Positions 26,152-32,109 of a stretch of 64,000 nucleotides of DNA are shown one piece after another (position 1 is the first letter of the stretch; every line of letters starts with the position of its first letter). Source of the stretch: Sphingopyxis sp. (GTDB taxonomy: Bacteria; Pseudomonadota; Alphaproteobacteria; Sphingomonadales; Sphingomonadaceae); NCBI GenBank assembly GCA_051861185.1, contig JBIMKQ010000018.1:9213-73212 (forward strand), read 5' to 3'. The position numbers and the translations under genes are program-made. The notes beneath the pieces were generated by a model. That model ran no database searches and was not told the DNA's origin. It saw only the letters and a program-made list of their open reading frames with translations.

Positions 26152-26313
26152 CGATTACTTCCCCACAGGCATATTCATGCTCGCTACCCCTGTGGCCAAT
26201 CATGGATAAAAATTGGTTAACATCGACCCGGGTTTCTGGCGAAGGCGCGGCCTGTCGGCTTGGGAAGAGCGCCGAATTGCTGTAAACAGGCACCAGCCAA
26301 GGAGGCGCATGTC

Positions 26314-27276
26314 ATGGCTGGCGGTCTGGCAATCGTATTGAGCGGCGGCGGCGCCAAAGGCGCCTTCCAGGTCGGCGTCGTCCACGAACTGGTGGTCAAC
26401 CGCGGCGTTCGACTCGACATCGTCGCGGGCGTATCGACCGGCGCGATCCAGGCGCTGGGGGTCGCACAGGACGATGTTCCGGGCCTGCTCGATGCCTGGC
26501 TCGGGATCAAAGGCAACAGCTCGATCTACAAGTCGCGACCGCTGGGCGTGGTCGGCGGGCTGCTCGGCGAAGATGCGCTTTACGACACCGCCCCATTGAA
26601 ACGTCTGCTCAAGGGTTTCGCGAACGATGCAAGGCTGCGTGCGAGCGGCCGCAAAATGCTGCTCGGCGTCGTCAATCTCGGCACCGGCACCTATCGCAGC
26701 ATCGACGAAAGCGTGCCCGGCATCCACAATTGGGTCTATGCCAGCTGCGCGATGCCTTTGTTCTTCGATCCGCTGAAAACCCGCGCGAGCGACGGGACCG
26801 AGGAGCAATGGGTCGATGGCGGGGTGCGCGACGTGACCCCGCTCAGCGCCGCGCTCGAAATGAATCCGCGCGGCGTGATCGCCGTGCGCGCGTCCCCCGC
26901 ACCGCGCCCCGGCCCGGTGCGTATCTTTCCCAACCTGATCAAGATCGGGCTGCGCGCGGTCGATATCCTCCAATCCGAAGTTTCGGCCAACGATCTTGCC
27001 GGCGCCGCGCTGATCAACGACCTGATCGCGGCGCGCGAGGGTCAGCTCCGCGCGCTGCAAGGCGAAGGCATCGGCGCTGCGCAGGCGGCACGCATCCTCC
27101 GCCCGCTCGACGTCCAGATCGCGCGTTACCGCTTCGCCCCGATCCGCGTCATCGAACCCGAGGAAGAAGTCGCCGAAACGCTCGAATTCAACCCCGTGAA
27201 AATTCGCGCCGCGATCGACGCCGGACGGCGGGCGGTCGACCGCGAATGGGATGCGCTCGAACCATTGCTCAGCTGA
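26314..27276 (+). CDS. Patatin-like phospholipase
   Basis: GGGAKG oxyanion loop, GVSTG nucleophile, DGG motif; GGAGG RBS. Confidence 0.92.
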   Translation: MAGGLAIVLSGGGAKGAFQVGVVHELVVNRGVRLDIVAGVSTGAIQALGVAQDDVPGLLDAWLGIKGNSSIYKSRPLGVVGGLLGEDALYDTAPLKRLLKGFANDARLRASGRKMLLGVVNLGTGTYRSIDESVPGIHNWVYASCAMPLFFDPLKTRASDGTEEQWVDGGVRDVTPLSAALEMNPRGVIAVRASPAPRPGPVRIFPNLIKIGLRAVDILQSEVSANDLAGAALINDLIAAREGQLRALQGEGIGAAQAARILRPLDVQIARYRFAPIRVIEPEEEVAETLEFNPVKIRAAIDAGRRAVDREWDALEPLLS

Positions 27277-27283
27277 TAGGTTG

Positions 27284-27313
27284 AATGACCGGAATCGACC
27301 GATTGCGGACGCT
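27284..27313 (+). repeat. Palindromic site upstream of the orphan immunity gene
   Basis: GACCGG-AATCG-AC-CGATT-GCGGAC; related to 27761-27785. Confidence 0.5.
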
Positions 27314-27336
27314 CAGAAAATCAGCTGAATGGAGCG

Positions 27337-27753
27337 ATGAAACCGTTCGACCCAACCAAAACGCTAGAAGATCTTATCGGCGTCCGTGCTGGTGATCCTG
27401 ATGTCGCGGAGACTCCACTGATCGAGCGGGTCATTAGATCGTGGAAGAAGCCGTTGTGCGATTTGTCCGACGACGAAATCGGCCGCCTCGTGGTGCAACG
27501 CGATGGCTTTCCTTACATGCTCGACCTTGTTTGGCCGAAGCTAGAACATGATCCTTTGTTCGACGGAGGTTATTATCCGGGCGACGTCCTTTCCAGTCTC
27601 ATTCGATGCGAGCCGCAGGTCTGGACCGCTCGTCCCAATTATCTTGCACAACTGGCGTCTCTTTATCAGCGAGCACTCAGCAGTGAACCGGAGGAAAATG
27701 AGGCGTTTCGGGCAAGTCTTGATCTTCCAGACGAAGGCGGGATAATTTCCTGA
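27337..27753 (+). CDS. CdiI-like (contact-dependent inhibition immunity) protein, orphan
   Basis: KTLEDL...KKPLCDLSDDEIGRLVVQ...DPLFDGGYYPGDVL resembles CdiI_3-type immunity proteins as recalled; GC clearly below the flanks. Confidence 0.6.
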   Translation: MKPFDPTKTLEDLIGVRAGDPDVAETPLIERVIRSWKKPLCDLSDDEIGRLVVQRDGFPYMLDLVWPKLEHDPLFDGGYYPGDVLSSLIRCEPQVWTARPNYLAQLASLYQRALSSEPEENEAFRASLDLPDEGGIIS

Positions 27754-27760
27754 ACGTTAC

Positions 27761-27785
27761 GTCCGCTTCCCACCCCAATGCGGCC
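27761..27785 (+). repeat. Palindromic site downstream of the orphan immunity gene
   Basis: GTCCGC-TTCCCACCCCAAT-GCGGCC, beginning 8 nt after the stop codon. Confidence 0.5.
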
Positions 27786-27794
27786 TAACGGCCT

Positions 27795-30566
27795 CTATCG
27801 CGCACCATCTCCCGCGCCGGGTGGTCCGCGCGCGCTGTTACTGCCCGCCGATGGCTCGCCCTGCACCGCGACATCGCGCCGCAGCGGCTTCAACGCCAGC
27901 GTGCCGAGCCGCACCCGCGGGGTCGCCTTGCCCGGCACCGCGGCAATCGCAAAACCGCCGTCCAGCCGCAATGCCGCAGCCGATGCCTTGCCCAGCCGCA
28001 CCGCATAGCGGCCATAGGCGACGCCTTCGAACAGGAAATATCCGTCGAATTCGGTGATCGTCGTCGCGCGCACGCGTCCTTCGGCATCGATCAGTTCGAC
28101 GCCGAGCCCCTCGATCACATTGCCGCCGTCGCGCCGGGCAGTCCCCTCGATCTCGCCCGCCGCCACCATCGGCAACGCGATGCGCGTCGCGACCCCCGGC
28201 CGCGGCGACACAACGACGCCGGGCAGCGCCGGCTGGACATAGGGGTCGGGCAGGCTGCCGGCGTCGATGCCGATCATCACCGGGCGGAACGGCTCGAGGC
28301 CATCGATCGTCCCCCGGCCATCCTTATCGGTCGCGGCCTCGACATAGGCGTTGCCCGCGGTCAGCGGCACATCCGGAAGCGCGGCTTCGCCGGGCTGGCG
28401 GATGCCGTCGCCATTGTCGTCCATCCACACATCGGCGATCACCTGGCCGCGGCTCGCGAGCTTTTCGCTCGACACGCGCCAGCCGCCATTTGATTTCGGC
28501 CCAAAGCTGAACGCAAGCGCGAGCGACGCCGCGACCGACCCGTCGCTCGCCACTTCACCGAACCCCGTCAGCTGCAACTTGTTGAAACGGCGTGTATATC
28601 CGACGCCCGCACGCGCGCGATCGAGCCCGCGATCGTAACCGACTTCGGCCCGCCATTCGGCATCACCCTTCCCCGCCCATTCGCCGATTACCGCCATGCG
28701 CGTGTCGCTATTGTCGCCCGACAGCGCAAAGCGCGCCTCACCGCGCAGGCGGACGCGCCCGATCCGGGCATTGGCGAGCAGGCTGGCGGTCAGATTGTCG
28801 GGCGGATCGGGGCCGATGGGCACCTTCGTCCGGCTCCAGTCGAGCTGGCCGGTGAAGGTCAGCGCCCGAAAGCTCGCCGACGCCCGCGCGCTCGCCTCGA
28901 GACTTTCGATTCCCGAGCGCCGCTCGACCTGCCGCACGTCGAAATGCAGCGGCAGCACCGTCTGCCCCAGCTTCACCGACTGGTCGACCGAGATCGAATA
29001 GAGGCCGTGGATGCCGTTGATGAAACGATCGGACACGAAGCCGCCCCAGCCGCGCATCGCATCGGCGCGCACATAGGTTTCGCCGAACGCCGCCAGCCAG
29101 CTCGCGCGCGCCGCGCCGCTACCATTGTCGGCATAAGAGCCCCCGACCTCGATCAAGGTCGGCCCGATCGACCGGCGCACCGCCGCCTCGCCGTAATTGT
29201 ACCGGACATTCTCGATCATCAGGCTGTGAAGATAAGCCGCTGCGGACGTTCGTGTGCCCAGCCCGCGCTCGATTCCCATCGTCCCGCGCCAGCCGCGCCG
29301 GAACGCCCCGCGCCGCGGGTTCCCGAATTCGACCAGGTCGGCATTTTCCTGCGCGAAACCCGCCCAATACCAGGTCTGCTGAGGCGGGATCGAATCCATC
29401 CCCACCTGCACCTGCTTGATTTCGCGGCGAATCTGTCCCTGCGGGCCATAGAGCACGATCTCGAAACGGTTCGATCCATATTGCAGCGGCACGTCGATGA
29501 ATTCATACCGCCCGTCGCCGTTCGGGCTGGTGAAGGCGAGCAATTGCCCGTTGCGATAAAGTTCGGCATCCCAGCCGGCGGGCAGGTCGCCGCGGAAGGT
29601 CGTCTTGTCGAAACTGTCGGGACGCTCCACCGGGCGATTGGTCAGCACCGCGCCGCGCCCCGGCGCCGACGATGCAACGATCCCGGTCGATAGCAGGCTG
29701 ACGTCGCCCGCCGCATAATGCGTCGCCTTCAGCGGCCCGAGCAGCTGCCCCTGCGGATCGGTGCGATAGAGCCGCATGCGCAAACTGTCGGGCACACCCT
29801 CATTATCCGACGACAGCCGCGCGTCGAAACTCTGCCCCAGCACCTCGCCCGCAGCAAACACCTCATAGCGCTCCTGAACATAGGATCCGCCGCGTTTGTC
29901 CGACACGAACCCCGCCGAAGCGACGACATCGACCGACGGCGTCGCCCACGCCTGATACGGCCGTTTTGCCTGCGGCAGGCTCGCGAGGTCGAAGGCGGCT
30001 TGCGGACGAATTCCCGCGGCGCGCGCGCGCCGTTCGGCGGCGAGCTGGAACGGCAACTTGTCCTTCGTGTCGATACGCAGCACCGCGTTCGAAAGATCGG
30101 CCGTCAGCGGCACGCCCAGCCATTTGTTCAGGCTATCCAGATCGACGCACCAACCCGCGGGCGTGTCGCGGATCATCGCCGGGGTCAGCCGAAAGCTCTC
30201 GCTGCCCGCGCGGACTTCGCCCGCATCGCGATCGATCGTCAGGCCGCGCCGCTCGTCGAACACCCAGCCGGTTGCGCGGCGCAACTTCCTGTCGACACGC
30301 ACCGCGAGATCGAGCGCGAGCACGACATCGGCCAGATCGACGCATACCCCCTGCGGCGTCTGGTACCCGCGCACCCCGTCGCCCAGCCGGTACTGCCCCG
30401 AACGCACATCGAACAGCCAGCTGTCGTCCTCGTTCGGCGCCCACATGTCGGCCGCGATCGACACCGGCTTTTTCTCAACGGCCGCGGCGCCGGCAGGGAC
30501 CATCCCCACCAGCGCCAGTCCGGCCAATATCGCCGGTTTCCATCGGGAAAGCGCCGCGCGGATCAT
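27795..30566 (-). CDS. Fimbrial usher-like outer membrane protein with C-terminal carboxypeptidase-regulatory/SdrD-B-like domains
   Basis: Signal peptide; plug-like FRGDLPAGWDAELYRNGQ...VPLQYGSNRFEIVLYGPQG; long amphipathic beta region; VWMDDNGDGIRQPGE. Confidence 0.7.
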   Translation of the reverse strand: MIRAALSRWKPAILAGLALVGMVPAGAAAVEKKPVSIAADMWAPNEDDSWLFDVRSGQYRLGDGVRGYQTPQGVCVDLADVVLALDLAVRVDRKLRRATGWVFDERRGLTIDRDAGEVRAGSESFRLTPAMIRDTPAGWCVDLDSLNKWLGVPLTADLSNAVLRIDTKDKLPFQLAAERRARAAGIRPQAAFDLASLPQAKRPYQAWATPSVDVVASAGFVSDKRGGSYVQERYEVFAAGEVLGQSFDARLSSDNEGVPDSLRMRLYRTDPQGQLLGPLKATHYAAGDVSLLSTGIVASSAPGRGAVLTNRPVERPDSFDKTTFRGDLPAGWDAELYRNGQLLAFTSPNGDGRYEFIDVPLQYGSNRFEIVLYGPQGQIRREIKQVQVGMDSIPPQQTWYWAGFAQENADLVEFGNPRRGAFRRGWRGTMGIERGLGTRTSAAAYLHSLMIENVRYNYGEAAVRRSIGPTLIEVGGSYADNGSGAARASWLAAFGETYVRADAMRGWGGFVSDRFINGIHGLYSISVDQSVKLGQTVLPLHFDVRQVERRSGIESLEASARASASFRALTFTGQLDWSRTKVPIGPDPPDNLTASLLANARIGRVRLRGEARFALSGDNSDTRMAVIGEWAGKGDAEWRAEVGYDRGLDRARAGVGYTRRFNKLQLTGFGEVASDGSVAASLALAFSFGPKSNGGWRVSSEKLASRGQVIADVWMDDNGDGIRQPGEAALPDVPLTAGNAYVEAATDKDGRGTIDGLEPFRPVMIGIDAGSLPDPYVQPALPGVVVSPRPGVATRIALPMVAAGEIEGTARRDGGNVIEGLGVELIDAEGRVRATTITEFDGYFLFEGVAYGRYAVRLGKASAAALRLDGGFAIAAVPGKATPRVRLGTLALKPLRRDVAVQGEPSAGSNSARGPPGAGDGAR

Positions 30567-30598
30567 CGTCCCGCCCGCTTCGCTCCGGCCTTACGCCG

Positions 30599-31426
30599 TC
30601 ATTTCACCACCCGCTCGGCTTCGTCGATCGTGCCGCCGCCGATTTCGCGGTCCTCGGTATAGCGGATGCGCACCGGCCCCTTCAGCTTCGCCGCGAGTTC
30701 CCCCGGAACGCGCAGCGAAACCTTGCGCGCGCCGACTTCGGGATAGACCGCGATGCCGCGCGCGACGAGCAACGGTTCGGCGATCCCCGGCCGCGTGACC
30801 TCGATATCGCCATAGACCGAACGGTTTCCGGTGCGCGAAAGGTCGAAATTGAACGCCGGGCCGTCGCGGGTCTCGCTGACCCACGCCTCGCCGATCGCCG
30901 CCTCAGCGCCCAGATCGCCGACCCGCACGATCACCGGGATGGTGATCCCATAGATCGGCGTCAGCGCGATCGACACGCCCTCGCCCGCCGGCTTCGCGTC
31001 ACCGGTCGCCGCCGCAGTCGCATCGGGGACCGCGCGAAACAGCATATGCGCGCGATATTCGCCCGGCGCCGTTCCTTCGGGGACGCGGACCCCGACACGC
31101 ACGACCTGCGGCTGGTTGGGCGGCAGCGTGACGCGGCGCGGACTGAACGCGATCATGTCGAGCGCGGTTCGCTCGGCGGGCCGGGCATCCTCCTCGGCGA
31201 TCTCGTCGAGCCCGCCCTCGGCGGTCATGCGCTTGATCTCGAGGCTGATGCGATAGGTCGCCGGTTCGGCACCGATATTGTTGAGAACCACTTCGGTCCC
31301 GCGCGATCCGTCGAGGATGACGCGCGTCGGCGCAACGAGCAGGTCGCCCGCCGCCATGGCGGGCAAAGCGACCGCGCCGGACGCAGCCGCGGTAAACAGG
31401 CAAAATGCCTTCAAAAAGCGTAACAT
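30599..31426 (-). CDS. PapD-like periplasmic pilus chaperone
   Basis: Signal peptide; LLVAPTRVIL, FSPRRVTLPPNQPQVVRV, GEYRAHMLFRAVP, ITIPVIVR. Confidence 0.82.
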   Translation of the reverse strand: MLRFLKAFCLFTAAASGAVALPAMAAGDLLVAPTRVILDGSRGTEVVLNNIGAEPATYRISLEIKRMTAEGGLDEIAEEDARPAERTALDMIAFSPRRVTLPPNQPQVVRVGVRVPEGTAPGEYRAHMLFRAVPDATAAATGDAKPAGEGVSIALTPIYGITIPVIVRVGDLGAEAAIGEAWVSETRDGPAFNFDLSRTGNRSVYGDIEVTRPGIAEPLLVARGIAVYPEVGARKVSLRVPGELAAKLKGPVRIRYTEDREIGGGTIDEAERVVK

Positions 31427-31611
31427 GGATACGATCCCCACAATCGTTTTCCGGCACGGCCCACACCGTCCCGATGGTCGCATCCTGCCTGCGCCAACAT
31501 GGTTGATATTTCGCTAACCATAGAGGCCGATTGCAAAAAAGAGGTCGCCGGACGAGCGCCCGGCGACCTCAATTTTACCGCTGGCGGGTCTCGGCCCGCC
31601 AGGCCCCCGCC

Positions 31612-32109
31612 TTATTGATAATTGGCGGTGACGTTGAACGTGCCGGTATAGTCGCCCGACGCCTGGTTGGCGCCGACGCTCAGCGTGCCGCCGACCTGGA
31701 AGCTGCCGCCGGTGGCGCCCAGCGTGATCGTGGGCGACGAATAGGTCAGCGTCGACGCCATCGTGCCGCCGAGCGAACCATTGAGCGTGACGCTCGAATC
31801 GCCGCCGACCAGCACCACAGCACCGTCGGTGCCGGCAACGTTGAAGTTGGCCGAGGTCGCCGTACCGGTGCAGGTCAGGCTCGCGCCGCACGTCCGGGTA
31901 CCGGCGGTCGACACGGCAACGGTCGATGCGGTCGCGCCGCTGATGATCGTCGCATATTGCAGGTCACTGGTGTTGGTGAGCGTGATCTGACGCAGGATCT
32001 TGGCTTTCGCCGTGCCCGTCGCCGACGCCGCATGGGCCGCCGGGGCGTTCATGGCGAGGGCAGCAATTGCGGCACCCAGAAGGGCGCGCTTCATTCCAAA
32101 TTTGCGCAT
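31612..32109 (-). CDS. DUF4402-type secreted protein, probable pilin
   Basis: Signal peptide ending AHA; Thr/Gly/Ser-rich beta protein; Cys pair; C-terminal GDYTGTFNVTANYQ. Confidence 0.75.
   Translation of the reverse strand: MRKFGMKRALLGAAIAALAMNAPAAHAASATGTAKAKILRQITLTNTSDLQYATIISGATASTVAVSTAGTRTCGASLTCTGTATSANFNVAGTDGAVVLVGGDSSVTLNGSLGGTMASTLTYSSPTITLGATGGSFQVGGTLSVGANQASGDYTGTFNVTANYQ

What the first reader, a model, noticed from the sequence alone, without database searches (positions are those of the whole stretch)
27277..27794. Low-GC orphan immunity gene bracketed by two related palindromic sites (one-gene cassette)
Seen: a compact ORF whose GC (50% and 57% in two hand-counted 60-nt lines) is below the GC-rich flanks. 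It sits between GACCGG-N12-GCGGAC (27287-27310, 11 nt after the patatin stop) and GTCCGC-N13-GCGGCC (27761-27785, 8 nt after its own stop). The two sites are direct-orientation, imperfectly palindromic variants of G(A/T)CCG(C/G)-N12/13-GCGG(A/C)C. Inference: an ORF with little room for its own promoter plus a downstream palindrome is the layout of an integron-like cassette. These sites are not canonical attC (no RYYYAAC/GTTRRRY pair) and no recombinase is in the window. This may be a distinct cassette-capture system with a recombinase acting in trans.
Basis: partly seen in the sequence, partly recalled or inferred. Interest (0 to 1): 0.75.

Follow-up and report, generated by a model that had tools for sequence, protein, structure and literature searches.

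The report
Immunity gene in a mini-cassette family
The small low-GC gene is an orphan toxin-immunity gene. It sits between two conserved 30-base end sequences that bracket many different small foreign genes, singly or in short arrays, across Sphingomonadales. This points to an apparently undescribed integron-like gene-cassette system in a bacterial class reported to lack integrons.

Summary
**Observation:** confirmed. The 138-aa ORF (27337-27753) belongs to Pfam family CdiI_3. Its predicted fold matches CdiI of E. coli 536. Its GC is 53.5% and GC3 53%, against about 80% GC3 in the neighbouring genes.

**The two sites:** They belong to two longer, different motifs:
- L: GAATGGCTGCTAACGACCGATTGCGGACAT
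- R: ACGTCCGCTTCCCACCCCAAAGCCGACATTC

**Pairing:** this genome has 12 ordered same-strand L-to-R pairings, which resolve to 10 units, against 0.15 expected by chance.
- Seven units hold 243-977 bp of low-GC cargo.
- Three hold GC-rich palindromic filler.

**Mobility:** the same CdiI gene lies between L and R in six different chromosomal contexts. Arrays of 2-5 units exist, joined by a conserved junction of about 75 nt.

**Relatives:** those lacking the ORF have weak L- and R-like sequences at the same site, in the same order, around palindromic filler. They do not show a single-repeat empty site.

**What it is not:**
- The sites are not attC: they do not fold better than shuffled sequence and lack the core motifs.
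- I found no target-site duplication.
- No recombinase lies next to the arrays.

**Candidate enzyme:** a 210-aa tyrosine recombinase family has an R-like site just downstream of it in all loci I checked. Both copies in this genome are broken. The link between this enzyme and the cassettes is inferred.

**Verdict:** the cassette reading is partly supported. This is probably a new variant of a cassette system. I found no paper describing it.

The parts
26311..27276 (+). Patatin-like phospholipase gene. It is the conserved left neighbour and converges on the 923-aa gene.
   Evidence: Pfam Patatin E 3.3e-28. Its 3' end is 80-89% identical in relatives of the genus.
27269..27328 (.). Imperfect 29-nt inverted repeat (TCAGCTGA...TCAGCTGA) that spans the patatin stop codon and L.
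   Evidence: the repeat finder pair I1, 72% complementary. Significance not established.
27283..27312 (+). L end: GAATGACCGGAATCGACCGATTGCGGACGC.
   Evidence: nhmmer E 4.1e-5 with the L model (C18:36495-36527 equals window 27283-27315). Consensus from 60 units. L lies upstream of the same cargo in six contexts.
27313..27336 (+). Cargo-specific 5' leader with Shine-Dalgarno GGAG (27331-27334).
   Evidence: Conserved with the ORF in all six contexts (A4). No sigma-70-like promoter was found upstream of the ORF.
27337..27753 (+). Cargo: orphan CdiI_3-family immunity gene, 138 aa, GC 53.5%.
   Evidence: Pfam PF18616 E 1.5e-12. Profile hit to PDB 5j5v_C at E 0.005. AlphaFold pLDDT 91.6. Foldseek TM 0.66/0.72 to 5j5v_C. 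114 homologues, all about 140 aa.
27759..27788 (+). R end: ACGTCCGCTTCCCACCCCAATGCGGCCTAA.
   Evidence: nhmmer E 2.1e-4 (C18:36969-37000). The 18-mer core recurs about 17 times in the genome. It matches exactly in more than 120 stretches of other genomes.
27795..30566 (-). 923-aa secreted or outer-membrane protein gene. It is the conserved right neighbour, and its stop codon lies 6 nt after R.
   Evidence: ORF list. Pfam SdrD_B and CarboxypepD_reg near the C-terminus. Its 3' end is conserved in relatives.

Best explanation
**What it is.** The ORF is an orphan immunity gene of the CdiI type from E. coli 536. In E. coli that protein blocks a CysK-activated tRNA nuclease. Here the gene is the cargo of one unit of a dispersed family of non-autonomous mini-cassettes with the layout L end (about 30 nt) - cargo - R end (about 30 nt).

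**Shown**
- L and R are two distinct conserved motifs that occur as ordered, co-oriented pairs.
- Between them lies either 0.25-2 kb of low-GC DNA with one or two small accessory genes (in either orientation) or a GC-rich REPIN-like palindrome.
- Units occur singly, typically between convergent genes. They also occur in head-to-tail arrays joined by a conserved R-spacer-L junction of about 75 nt.
- The same CdiI cargo, with its own leader, is bounded by L and R in six unrelated chromosomal contexts.
- Relatives carry weak L- and R-like sequences with another filling at the same patatin/923-aa-gene site.

**Inferred**
- The interior of a resident L...R docking site is exchanged, or whole units are inserted, by conservative site-specific recombination at the conserved cores. 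These cores carry the GCGGAC/GTCCGC arms that hug the cargo. The enzyme would be encoded elsewhere.
- The best candidate enzyme is a 210-aa tyrosine recombinase family that has only the catalytic domain. It was followed by an R-like site in all seven copies I examined. Both copies in this genome are broken, so the cassette here is probably frozen.
- The gene can be read through from the patatin gene: same strand, a 60-nt gap, its own Shine-Dalgarno sequence and no promoter found. It would protect the cell against kin or neighbours that deliver the matching toxin.
For: **Cargo identity:**

**Foreign composition:**

**L/R pairing statistics:** (12 ordered pairings against 0.15 expected; none on opposite strands).

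**Cargo content:**. Seven low-GC cargo units in this genome hold ORFans, a lipoprotein and an HTH_3 TA-like pair. No transposase was found.

**Spread**
- The exact R 18-mer is in more than 120 stretches, mostly Sphingopyxis and Erythrobacteraceae.
- There are 63 L-R units overall, most cargo-bearing ones with interiors at 0.50-0.60 GC in loci at 0.55-0.68.

**Arrays**
- C2:24413-25105 in this genome.
- L023, with four units and the CdiI homologue as unit 2.
- L074, L079, L050, L126 and L148.
- Metagenome L163, with at least four units.

**Mobility:** the CdiI cargo is in six contexts with identical cargo/end junctions.

**Occupied orthologous sites**
- Six relatives have REPIN-like filler between individually weak L- and R-like hits at the patatin site. 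A seventh, G003, has weak L/R hits in a locus I did not align.
- The response-regulator/rplQ site holds the CdiI unit in L024 and L + REPIN + R in this genome.

**Ends look resident:** the outer 13 nt of the window's L match the L of relative G021 at the same site at 10/13. They match the L of other CdiI units at 6-9/13. The sample is small.

**Candidate recombinase**
- P0117 matches PF00589 only.
- It has more than 8000 homologues at E <= 1e-20; the best 120 are 76-93% identical.
- An R-like GTCCGC-N13-15-GCGGAC site lies 40-80 nt after its stop in L040, L044, L136, L157 and L158.
- A degenerate R+L follows both broken copies in this genome.
Against: - No recombination event was observed.
- I found no solitary L, and no L abutting R, that would be the product of excision.
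- I found no short direct repeat (crossover core) at a fixed offset outside the ends.
- L and R have different 12-13-nt centres. Simple L x R recombination is therefore not expected, and cassette exchange needs L x L and R x R events.
- The small recombinase is never next to arrays in the loci I saw. It sits at the edges of larger integrative islands, so its R-like site may serve those islands instead.
- Its link to the cassettes rests on seven loci.
- The six CdiI contexts could partly reflect ancient vertical units plus rearrangements such as the one in G011.
Confidence: 0.55

Rival explanations
1. The units are non-autonomous transposons with terminal inverted repeats and a passenger gene (mobile insertion cassettes, or MITEs when empty). 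A DDE transposase of a related insertion sequence would move them in trans.
For: - Both ends read GAATG(G/T)C..GC - 12-13 nt - GCGGAC when written outward-in (consensus), so they are imperfect inverted repeats of about 30 nt.
- Cargo is unrelated to transposition and occurs in either orientation.
- Units are dispersed in intergenic DNA.
Against: - No target-site duplication at any fixed offset.
- No unit, including those of 1.3-2.1 kb, carries a transposase.
- No transposase recurs near 120 loci.
- Head-to-tail arrays with a conserved 75-nt junction are not what DDE transposition produces.
- Repeated occupation of the same site in relatives is also not what DDE transposition produces.
Confidence: 0.1
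2. The units move as single-stranded DNA through a HUH/Y1 enzyme (IS200/IS605-type or REP-associated RAYT-type). The enzyme would recognise the two co-oriented subterminal hairpins in L and R, as in palindrome-associated transposable elements.
For: - Both ends contain a hairpin-like G(A/T)CCGC-N12/13-GC(G/C)GAC on the same strand.
- No inverted-repeat symmetry is required and no duplication is made, which fits.
- The units are full of REPIN-like elements, and these are moved by RAYT enzymes.
Against: - The stems are only 6 bp, usually with a mismatch, and show no compensatory change.
- The loops are long and are the most conserved part.
- The junction does not fold better than shuffled sequence.
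- No conserved 4-5-nt target was seen 5' of L.
Confidence: 0.1
3. There is no dedicated machinery. L and R are just a dispersed REP-like repeat pair in terminator regions between convergent genes. Cargo spreads between L...R sites by homologous recombination or gene conversion across the short conserved cores, for example after DNA uptake.
For: - The ends look resident while the interior changes.
- In G011 gene order switches exactly at a unit: its R is followed by DNA that follows R at another locus in this and other genomes.
- No recombinase is adjacent.
Against: - The conserved cores are only about 15-20 nt. From my own knowledge this is below the usual length needed for efficient RecA recombination.
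- Exact 18-mers are kept across several alphaproteobacterial orders, which argues for recognition by a protein.
- Cargo/end junctions are identical to the base in six contexts.
- Array junctions are conserved between genomes.
Confidence: 0.15
4. It is a canonical integron remnant: a CALIN, or a single cassette with attC sites.
For: It has small, promoter-poor foreign ORFs separated by repeats, short arrays and mostly unknown functions.
Against: - The R-spacer-L junction does not fold better than shuffles (z -0.1 to -1.0).
- By inspection there is no RYYYAAC/GTTRRRY pair.
- Every unit has two different ends.
- Cargo occurs in both orientations.
- The NCBIfam integron-integrase model scores 22.8 against a cut-off of 265 on the only associated recombinase.
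- A survey found alpha-Proteobacteria devoid of integrons, In0 and CALIN (PMC4889954).
Confidence: 0.03

Closest known systems
Integrons and CALINs (IntI tyrosine recombinase, attI, attC gene cassettes)
   Same: - Small, mostly promoterless accessory genes of foreign composition and unknown function.
- Genes are bounded by conserved recombination-site-like repeats.
- Units occur singly or in co-oriented arrays.
- A tyrosine recombinase is the likely enzyme.
- Orphan sites are found far from any integrase.
   Different: - Each unit has two different ends (L and R), not one attC.
- The sites do not fold like attC and lack its core motifs.
- Units are dispersed at many chromosomal sites, mostly between convergent genes, not gathered at one platform.
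- Cargo occurs in either orientation.
- The candidate recombinase is 210 aa, has only the catalytic domain, and is not adjacent to arrays.
- The host class was reported to lack integrons (PMC4889954).
Mobile insertion cassettes (MICs) and MITEs of insertion sequences
   Same: They are non-autonomous units with conserved ends of about 30 nt in roughly inverted orientation. They carry passenger genes or nothing and would be moved in trans.
   Different: - No target duplication.
- No parent insertion sequence found.
- Ordered arrays with a conserved junction.
- The same sites are occupied in different species.
Recombinase-associated acquired interbacterial defence clusters of Bacteroidales (arrays of orphan immunity genes beside a tyrosine recombinase; from my own knowledge, Ross et al. 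2019, not re-read here)
   Same: Orphan immunity genes against contact-dependent toxins are collected as small modules with conserved intergenic sequence.
   Different: - Only this one cargo could be identified as an immunity gene.
- No adjacent recombinase.
- Different phylum and different repeats.
REP/REPIN-RAYT repeats and BIME mosaics
   Same: They are located in short spacers between convergent genes. They are hairpin-like, have many copies, and REPIN-like doublets physically fill many L...R units.
   Different: L and R are not palindromic doublets. They bracket protein-coding cargo, and their most conserved parts are the non-pairing centres.
CdiI immunity protein of E. coli 536 (PDB 5J5V chain C)
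   Same: Same Pfam family (CdiI_3) and the same all-helical fold: TM 0.66-0.72, 23% identity.
   Different: - No cdiBAI locus or toxin gene lies next to it, here or in eight homologue contexts.
- The matching toxin in Sphingomonadales is unknown.

Membership tests
CdiI_3 / EC536-type CDI immunity protein | Sequence match to Pfam PF18616 above the gathering score | tested here: met
   47.7 bits against a cut-off of 28, covering residues 19-106.
CdiI_3 / EC536-type CDI immunity protein | Fold of the solved family member | tested here: met
   Model pLDDT 91.6. Best PDB match is 5j5v_C: probability 1.00, TM 0.66/0.72. Profile hit E 0.005.
CdiI_3 / EC536-type CDI immunity protein | Encoded directly downstream of its cognate CdiA-CT (or other polymorphic toxin) gene | tested here: not met
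   The upstream gene is a conserved patatin-like lipase. No toxin lies beside homologues in L023, L024, L147-L152 or L155. Hence it is an orphan.
CdiI_3 / EC536-type CDI immunity protein | Binds and neutralises the toxin | not testable with these tools
   Needs co-expression or a competition assay.
Integron / CALIN | attC: an imperfect palindrome of 57-141 nt that folds, with RYYYAAC and GTTRRRY cores | tested here: not met
   Four junctions folded as DNA give z -0.14 to -1.03 against shuffles. The core motifs are absent by inspection of the consensus. IntegronFinder's own model was not available.
Integron / CALIN | IntI-type integrase next to attI at the head of the array | tested here: not met
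   - No tyrosine recombinase was found in array loci of 8-15 kb.
- No recombinase family recurs in 120 loci.
- The candidate small recombinase scores 22.8 against a cut-off of 265 on the integron-integrase model.
Integron / CALIN | Co-oriented cassettes, each consisting of one ORF plus one attC | tested here: not met
   Each unit has L and R. Cargo lies on either strand.
MIC / MITE (DDE transposon derivative) | Target-site duplication flanking the element | tested here: not met
   Across 60 units, no 4-mer is shared at any offset pair more often than in shuffled pairings.
MIC / MITE (DDE transposon derivative) | Terminal inverted repeats shared with an autonomous insertion sequence | tested here: inconclusive
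   The ends are imperfect inverted repeats with different centres. No transposase-bearing unit was found among 63. Whole genomes could not be searched.
IS200/IS605-type palindrome-associated element or REPIN | Subterminal hairpins recognised by a Y1/HUH enzyme encoded in the genome | not tested
   The hairpins are weak.

The most novel reading that the evidence does not exclude
Sphingomonadales, and some other Alphaproteobacteria, may carry a previously undescribed cassette system that works like a decentralised integron.
- Many chromosomal docking sites would each be defined by two heterologous recombination sites, L and R.
- Single-gene cassettes would be swapped in and out of these sites, and stacked into arrays.
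- The enzyme would be a trans-acting 210-aa tyrosine recombinase with only a catalytic domain. This would be natural recombinase-mediated cassette exchange.
- It would fill the puzzling absence of integrons from this class.
Probability: 0.35. Interest if true: 0.85.

Novelty: new variant of a known kind. Interest (0 to 1): 0.7.

Why it matters
- **A gap in Alphaproteobacteria.** A large survey found Alphaproteobacteria devoid of integrons, In0 and CALINs and called this 'extremely puzzling' (PMC4889954). A different cassette system, with its own sites and possibly its own minimal recombinase, would be a new route by which these bacteria sample small accessory genes. Here those genes include immunity, toxin-antitoxin and surface proteins.
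- **A testable substrate.** The two short, well-defined ends and a 210-aa candidate enzyme make the idea directly testable. If it holds, they offer a compact two-site recombination tool.
- **Annotation.** It explains a recurrent class of low-GC ORFans between convergent genes in Sphingopyxis and Erythrobacteraceae.
- **Genome rearrangement.** It marks L...R units as places where gene order changes.

Tried and rejected
**Searches that found nothing**
- Rfam, on the window's region and on four array loci: no family.
- Plasmid collection, with the 79-nt junction: no match.
- An 'empty' site with L abutting R, or a solitary hairpin: none.
- Target-site duplications: none.
- Recurrent neighbouring proteins in 120 loci: only generic families such as LysR, SDR, TonB receptors and OmpR regulators.
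- A small recombinase inside the metagenome array loci: none.
- Literature searches for a described system: nothing relevant.

**Ideas rejected**
- The ORF's C-terminus is not made from the repeat remnant. Homologues are full length to residue 138.
- The 11.7-kb difference at the response-regulator/rplQ site is ordinary-GC genes, not an array.

**Wasted steps**
- The first alignment of relatives used the wrong strand for three loci and was redone.
- One fuzzy-regex script timed out.

- The genome search
- The look-up of sequencing runs
- The fetch from genomes

Because of these closures I could not test phyletic correlation, Y1/RAYT presence, a toxin search in the genome, expression or excision reads.

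Full report
**1. The observation**

The window holds a 138-aa ORF at 27337-27753 on the + strand. It begins 60 nt after the stop of a patatin-like phospholipase gene. It ends 41 nt before the stop of a convergent 923-aa gene.

Its GC is 0.535 and its GC3 0.532. The two neighbours have GC3 of 0.795 and 0.815. Only 1.2% of 417-nt tiles of the 4.09-Mb genome are as GC-poor.

As palindromes they are weak (4/6 and 5/6 pairs). The degenerate motif built from them is uninformative. It gives 97 hits on both strands of the genome at spacers 12 and 13, where other spacer lengths give 18-51 hits each.

**2. The gene**

- Pfam places the protein in CdiI_3 (47.7 bits, cut-off 28).
- A profile of 22 homologues finds one solved structure, 5j5v chain C, 'Immunity protein CdiI' (E 0.005).
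- A confident AlphaFold model (pLDDT 91.6) has that chain as its only convincing PDB fold match: probability 1.00, TM 0.66/0.72, 23% identity.
- The entry is the CdiA-CT/CdiI/CysK complex of uropathogenic E. coli. That toxin is a CysK-dependent tRNA anticodon nuclease (abstract of PMC11724271).
- No toxin gene is adjacent, here or beside homologues in eight other contexts.

It is therefore an orphan immunity gene.

**3. The two sites are the cores of two different conserved ends**

A short-query BLAST of the intergenic pieces against the genome gave two results:
- The downstream site recurs as GTCCGCTTCCCACCCCAA, about 17 times.
- The upstream one recurs as CGACCGATTGCGGAC.

Two other loci (C3:332.4 kb and C10:45 kb) have the same left motif, then 500-600 bp of 52% GC DNA, then the same right motif.

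I built profile models from the clear copies. They gave 22 L and 22 R hits at E < 1. These make 12 ordered same-strand L-to-R pairings within 2.5 kb, where random placement predicts 0.15. One pairing is in reverse order, which is the junction of a two-unit array. None is on opposite strands.

The pairings resolve to ten units:
- Seven hold 243-977 bp at 0.48-0.55 GC (genome 0.64).
- Three hold 135-188 bp of GC-rich palindromic repeat.

Consensus ends from 60 units in this and other genomes:
- L = GAATGGCTGCTAACGACCGATTGCGGACAT
- R = ACGTCCGCTTCCCACCCCAAAGCCGACATTC

Written outward-in, both ends read GAATG..GC - 12/13 nt - GCGGAC. They are imperfect inverted repeats with different, highly conserved centres. 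The cargo is hugged by GCGGAC(R)T ... A(Y)GTCCGC.

**4. Cargo**

In this genome the cargo ORFs are the following:
- the CdiI gene;
- a lipoprotein-like ORF;
- small membrane proteins;
- a 93-aa ORF paired with an HTH_3 protein, in a toxin-antitoxin-like layout;
- a 232-aa and a 292-aa ORFan.

They lie on either strand relative to L-to-R. In other genomes the cargo includes ankyrin- and LRR-like proteins, DUF3885, hydrolases and a GGDEF protein, but mostly ORFans. None is a transposase or recombinase.

**5. Distribution and arrays**

- Most are Sphingopyxis and Erythrobacteraceae.
- A few are Brevundimonas, Devosia, Methylobacterium, Tianweitania and Acetobacteraceae.

In these loci 53 of 149 R hits have an upstream L on the same strand. 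Most cargo-bearing interiors are at 0.50-0.60 GC in loci of 0.55-0.68.

Head-to-tail arrays occur:
- two units in this genome (C2:24413-25105);
- four in L023, where the CdiI homologue is unit 2;
- two to five in L028, L050, L074, L079, L126 and L148;
- at least four in metagenome contig L163.

The R-spacer-L junction of about 75 nt is conserved between genomes. An example is GTCCGCTTTCCACCCCAAAGTCGCCGTTCGCCGCCGATCTGGATCGAATGGCCGGAAACGACCGATTGCGGAC.
- It does not fold better than shuffled sequence (z -0.14 to -1.03).
- It matches no Rfam family.
- It matches no plasmid record.

**6. Evidence that units or their interiors move**

Close homologues of the CdiI gene (80-87% aa identity) keep the same leader and the same junctions to L and R. 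They lie in six unrelated places:

| Context | Locus |
|---|---|
| patatin / 923-aa gene | the window |
| a second site | L147 |
| an array | L148-150 |
| LptG / fatty-acid desaturase, 52 nt to each neighbour | L151 |
| unit 2 of the L023 array | L023 |
| response regulator / rplQ | L024 |

Conversely, sites stay occupied while their content differs.
- Six congeneric genomes lack the ORF at the patatin site. They carry a diverged L-like sequence, a REPIN-like doublet of one of at least two families, and a diverged R-like sequence.
- The L and R models hit the expected positions and order in those six, although each hit is weak on its own. A seventh genome, G003, gives weak L and R hits in a locus I did not align.
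- The response-regulator/rplQ site that holds the CdiI unit in L024 holds L + REPIN + R in this genome.
- The outer 13 nt of the window's L are closer to the L at the same site in G021 (10/13) than to the L of other CdiI units (6-9/13). The sample is small, but it suggests that the outer ends are resident and the interior is exchanged.
- In G011 the unit at the patatin site is followed by DNA that follows R at another locus in this and other genomes. Gene order therefore switches at a unit.

**7. What the mechanism is not, and what it may be**

- There is no target-site duplication.
- No parent insertion sequence was found.
- The sites have no attC-like fold or core motifs.
- No recombinase lies within 4-13 kb of arrays.
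- I found no L abutting R and no solitary L, so no excision product was seen.

I tested this.
- A 210-aa protein (P0117, L040:6328-6960) consists of little more than the tyrosine-recombinase catalytic domain. It aligns to XerC positions 125-281, and its integron-integrase score is far below the cut-off.
- It has more than 8000 homologues at E <= 1e-20. The best 120 are 76-93% identical and come from Sphingomonadales and some Rhizobiales.
- An R-like site, GTCCGC-N13-15-GCGGAC, lies 40-80 nt after its stop in L040, L044, L136, L157 and L158. The site occurs in either orientation. A '(G/A)AAGCGGAC(A/G)TTC' sequence lies about 40 nt before its start in the three loci where I read the upstream DNA (L040, L157, L162).
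- This genome has two copies, each followed by a degenerate R+L:
  - C10:78889-79506, with an in-frame TAA and no ATG;
  - C3:36348-36866, truncated, with a TGA in place of a Trp codon.
- The gene sits at the edges of larger integrative islands, not next to arrays.

It is therefore a candidate trans-acting enzyme. The link is inferred from seven loci only.

**8. Best reading**

The ORF is the cargo of one unit of a non-autonomous cassette family. The family is most likely handled by conservative site-specific recombination at two heterologous sites. This means cassette exchange at resident L...R docking sites, and stacking into arrays that regenerate the R-spacer-L junction. In this genome the system is probably frozen, because the candidate enzyme has decayed.

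Expression is most simply by read-through from the patatin gene. The two genes are on the same strand, the ORF has its own GGAG, and no promoter-like site lies upstream.

**9. Comparison with known systems, and novelty**

The architecture resembles integron cassettes and CALINs in spirit. It fails every defining feature I could test.

A survey found alpha-Proteobacteria devoid of integrons, In0 and CALIN (PMC4889954). Three literature searches found no description of these ends or of such arrays in Sphingomonadales.

Two other notes of this scan describe similar arrays in other genomes. They are not independent evidence.

I rate it a new variant of a known kind: a gene-cassette system. Confidence in the architecture is high. 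Confidence in the mechanism is moderate to low.

Noticed in passing
L009 (genome G011), reverse strand 1-1620: At the orthologous patatin site the L + REPIN + R unit is followed by 'GGTCTTTCCTACATTATCC...' and a membrane-protein gene. The same sequence follows R at another locus in this genome (C1, C12) and in L074, L075, L126 and L144. Gene order therefore changes exactly at a unit.
   Followed up: partly
genome contigs C10:78889-79506 (+) and C3:36348-36866 (-), outside the window: Two decayed copies of a 210-aa tyrosine recombinase with only a catalytic domain. The first has an in-frame TAA and no ATG. The second is truncated and has an in-frame TGA. Each is followed by a degenerate R+L junction.
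   Followed up: partly
L147:795-840: An 8-nt tandem duplication, ACGTCCGC|ACGTCCGC, lies exactly at the cargo/R boundary of a CdiI unit. It may be a footprint of strand exchange at the inner arm of R.
   Followed up: no
window 27269-27328: A 29-nt imperfect inverted repeat (TCAGCTGA...TCAGCTGA) spans the patatin stop codon and L. It is specific to this copy.
   Followed up: no
whole genome (for example C2:94428, C17:29027, C8:100199, C24:12234): Three REPIN-like palindromic families have 42, 22 and 28 arm copies (cores CCCCGGACTTGATCCGGGG, GGTGGCAGCGCGAAGCGCTGACGGAGG and TTCCCGCnnnnGCGGGAA). The second has an R-like motif within 250 nt downstream in 9 of 22 cases, so REPINs preferentially sit inside L...R units.
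   Followed up: partly
L152:5560-5590: In a more distant genome the junction is compressed to '...CGATTTCCACCCATTGCGGACATC'. The R centre is fused directly to the inner arm of L, which shows that both ends share the terminal GCGGACAT.
   Followed up: no
window 27795-32109: The right neighbour is the large outer-membrane component of what another first-stage note calls a DUF4402 pilin-chaperone-usher-like operon. It is conserved in the genus and unrelated to the cassette.
   Followed up: no
genome C5:28636-29921: A weak L-like hit (E 0.24) abuts the 3' end of a 418-aa integrase-like ORF. It may be an att site of an integrative element.
   Followed up: no
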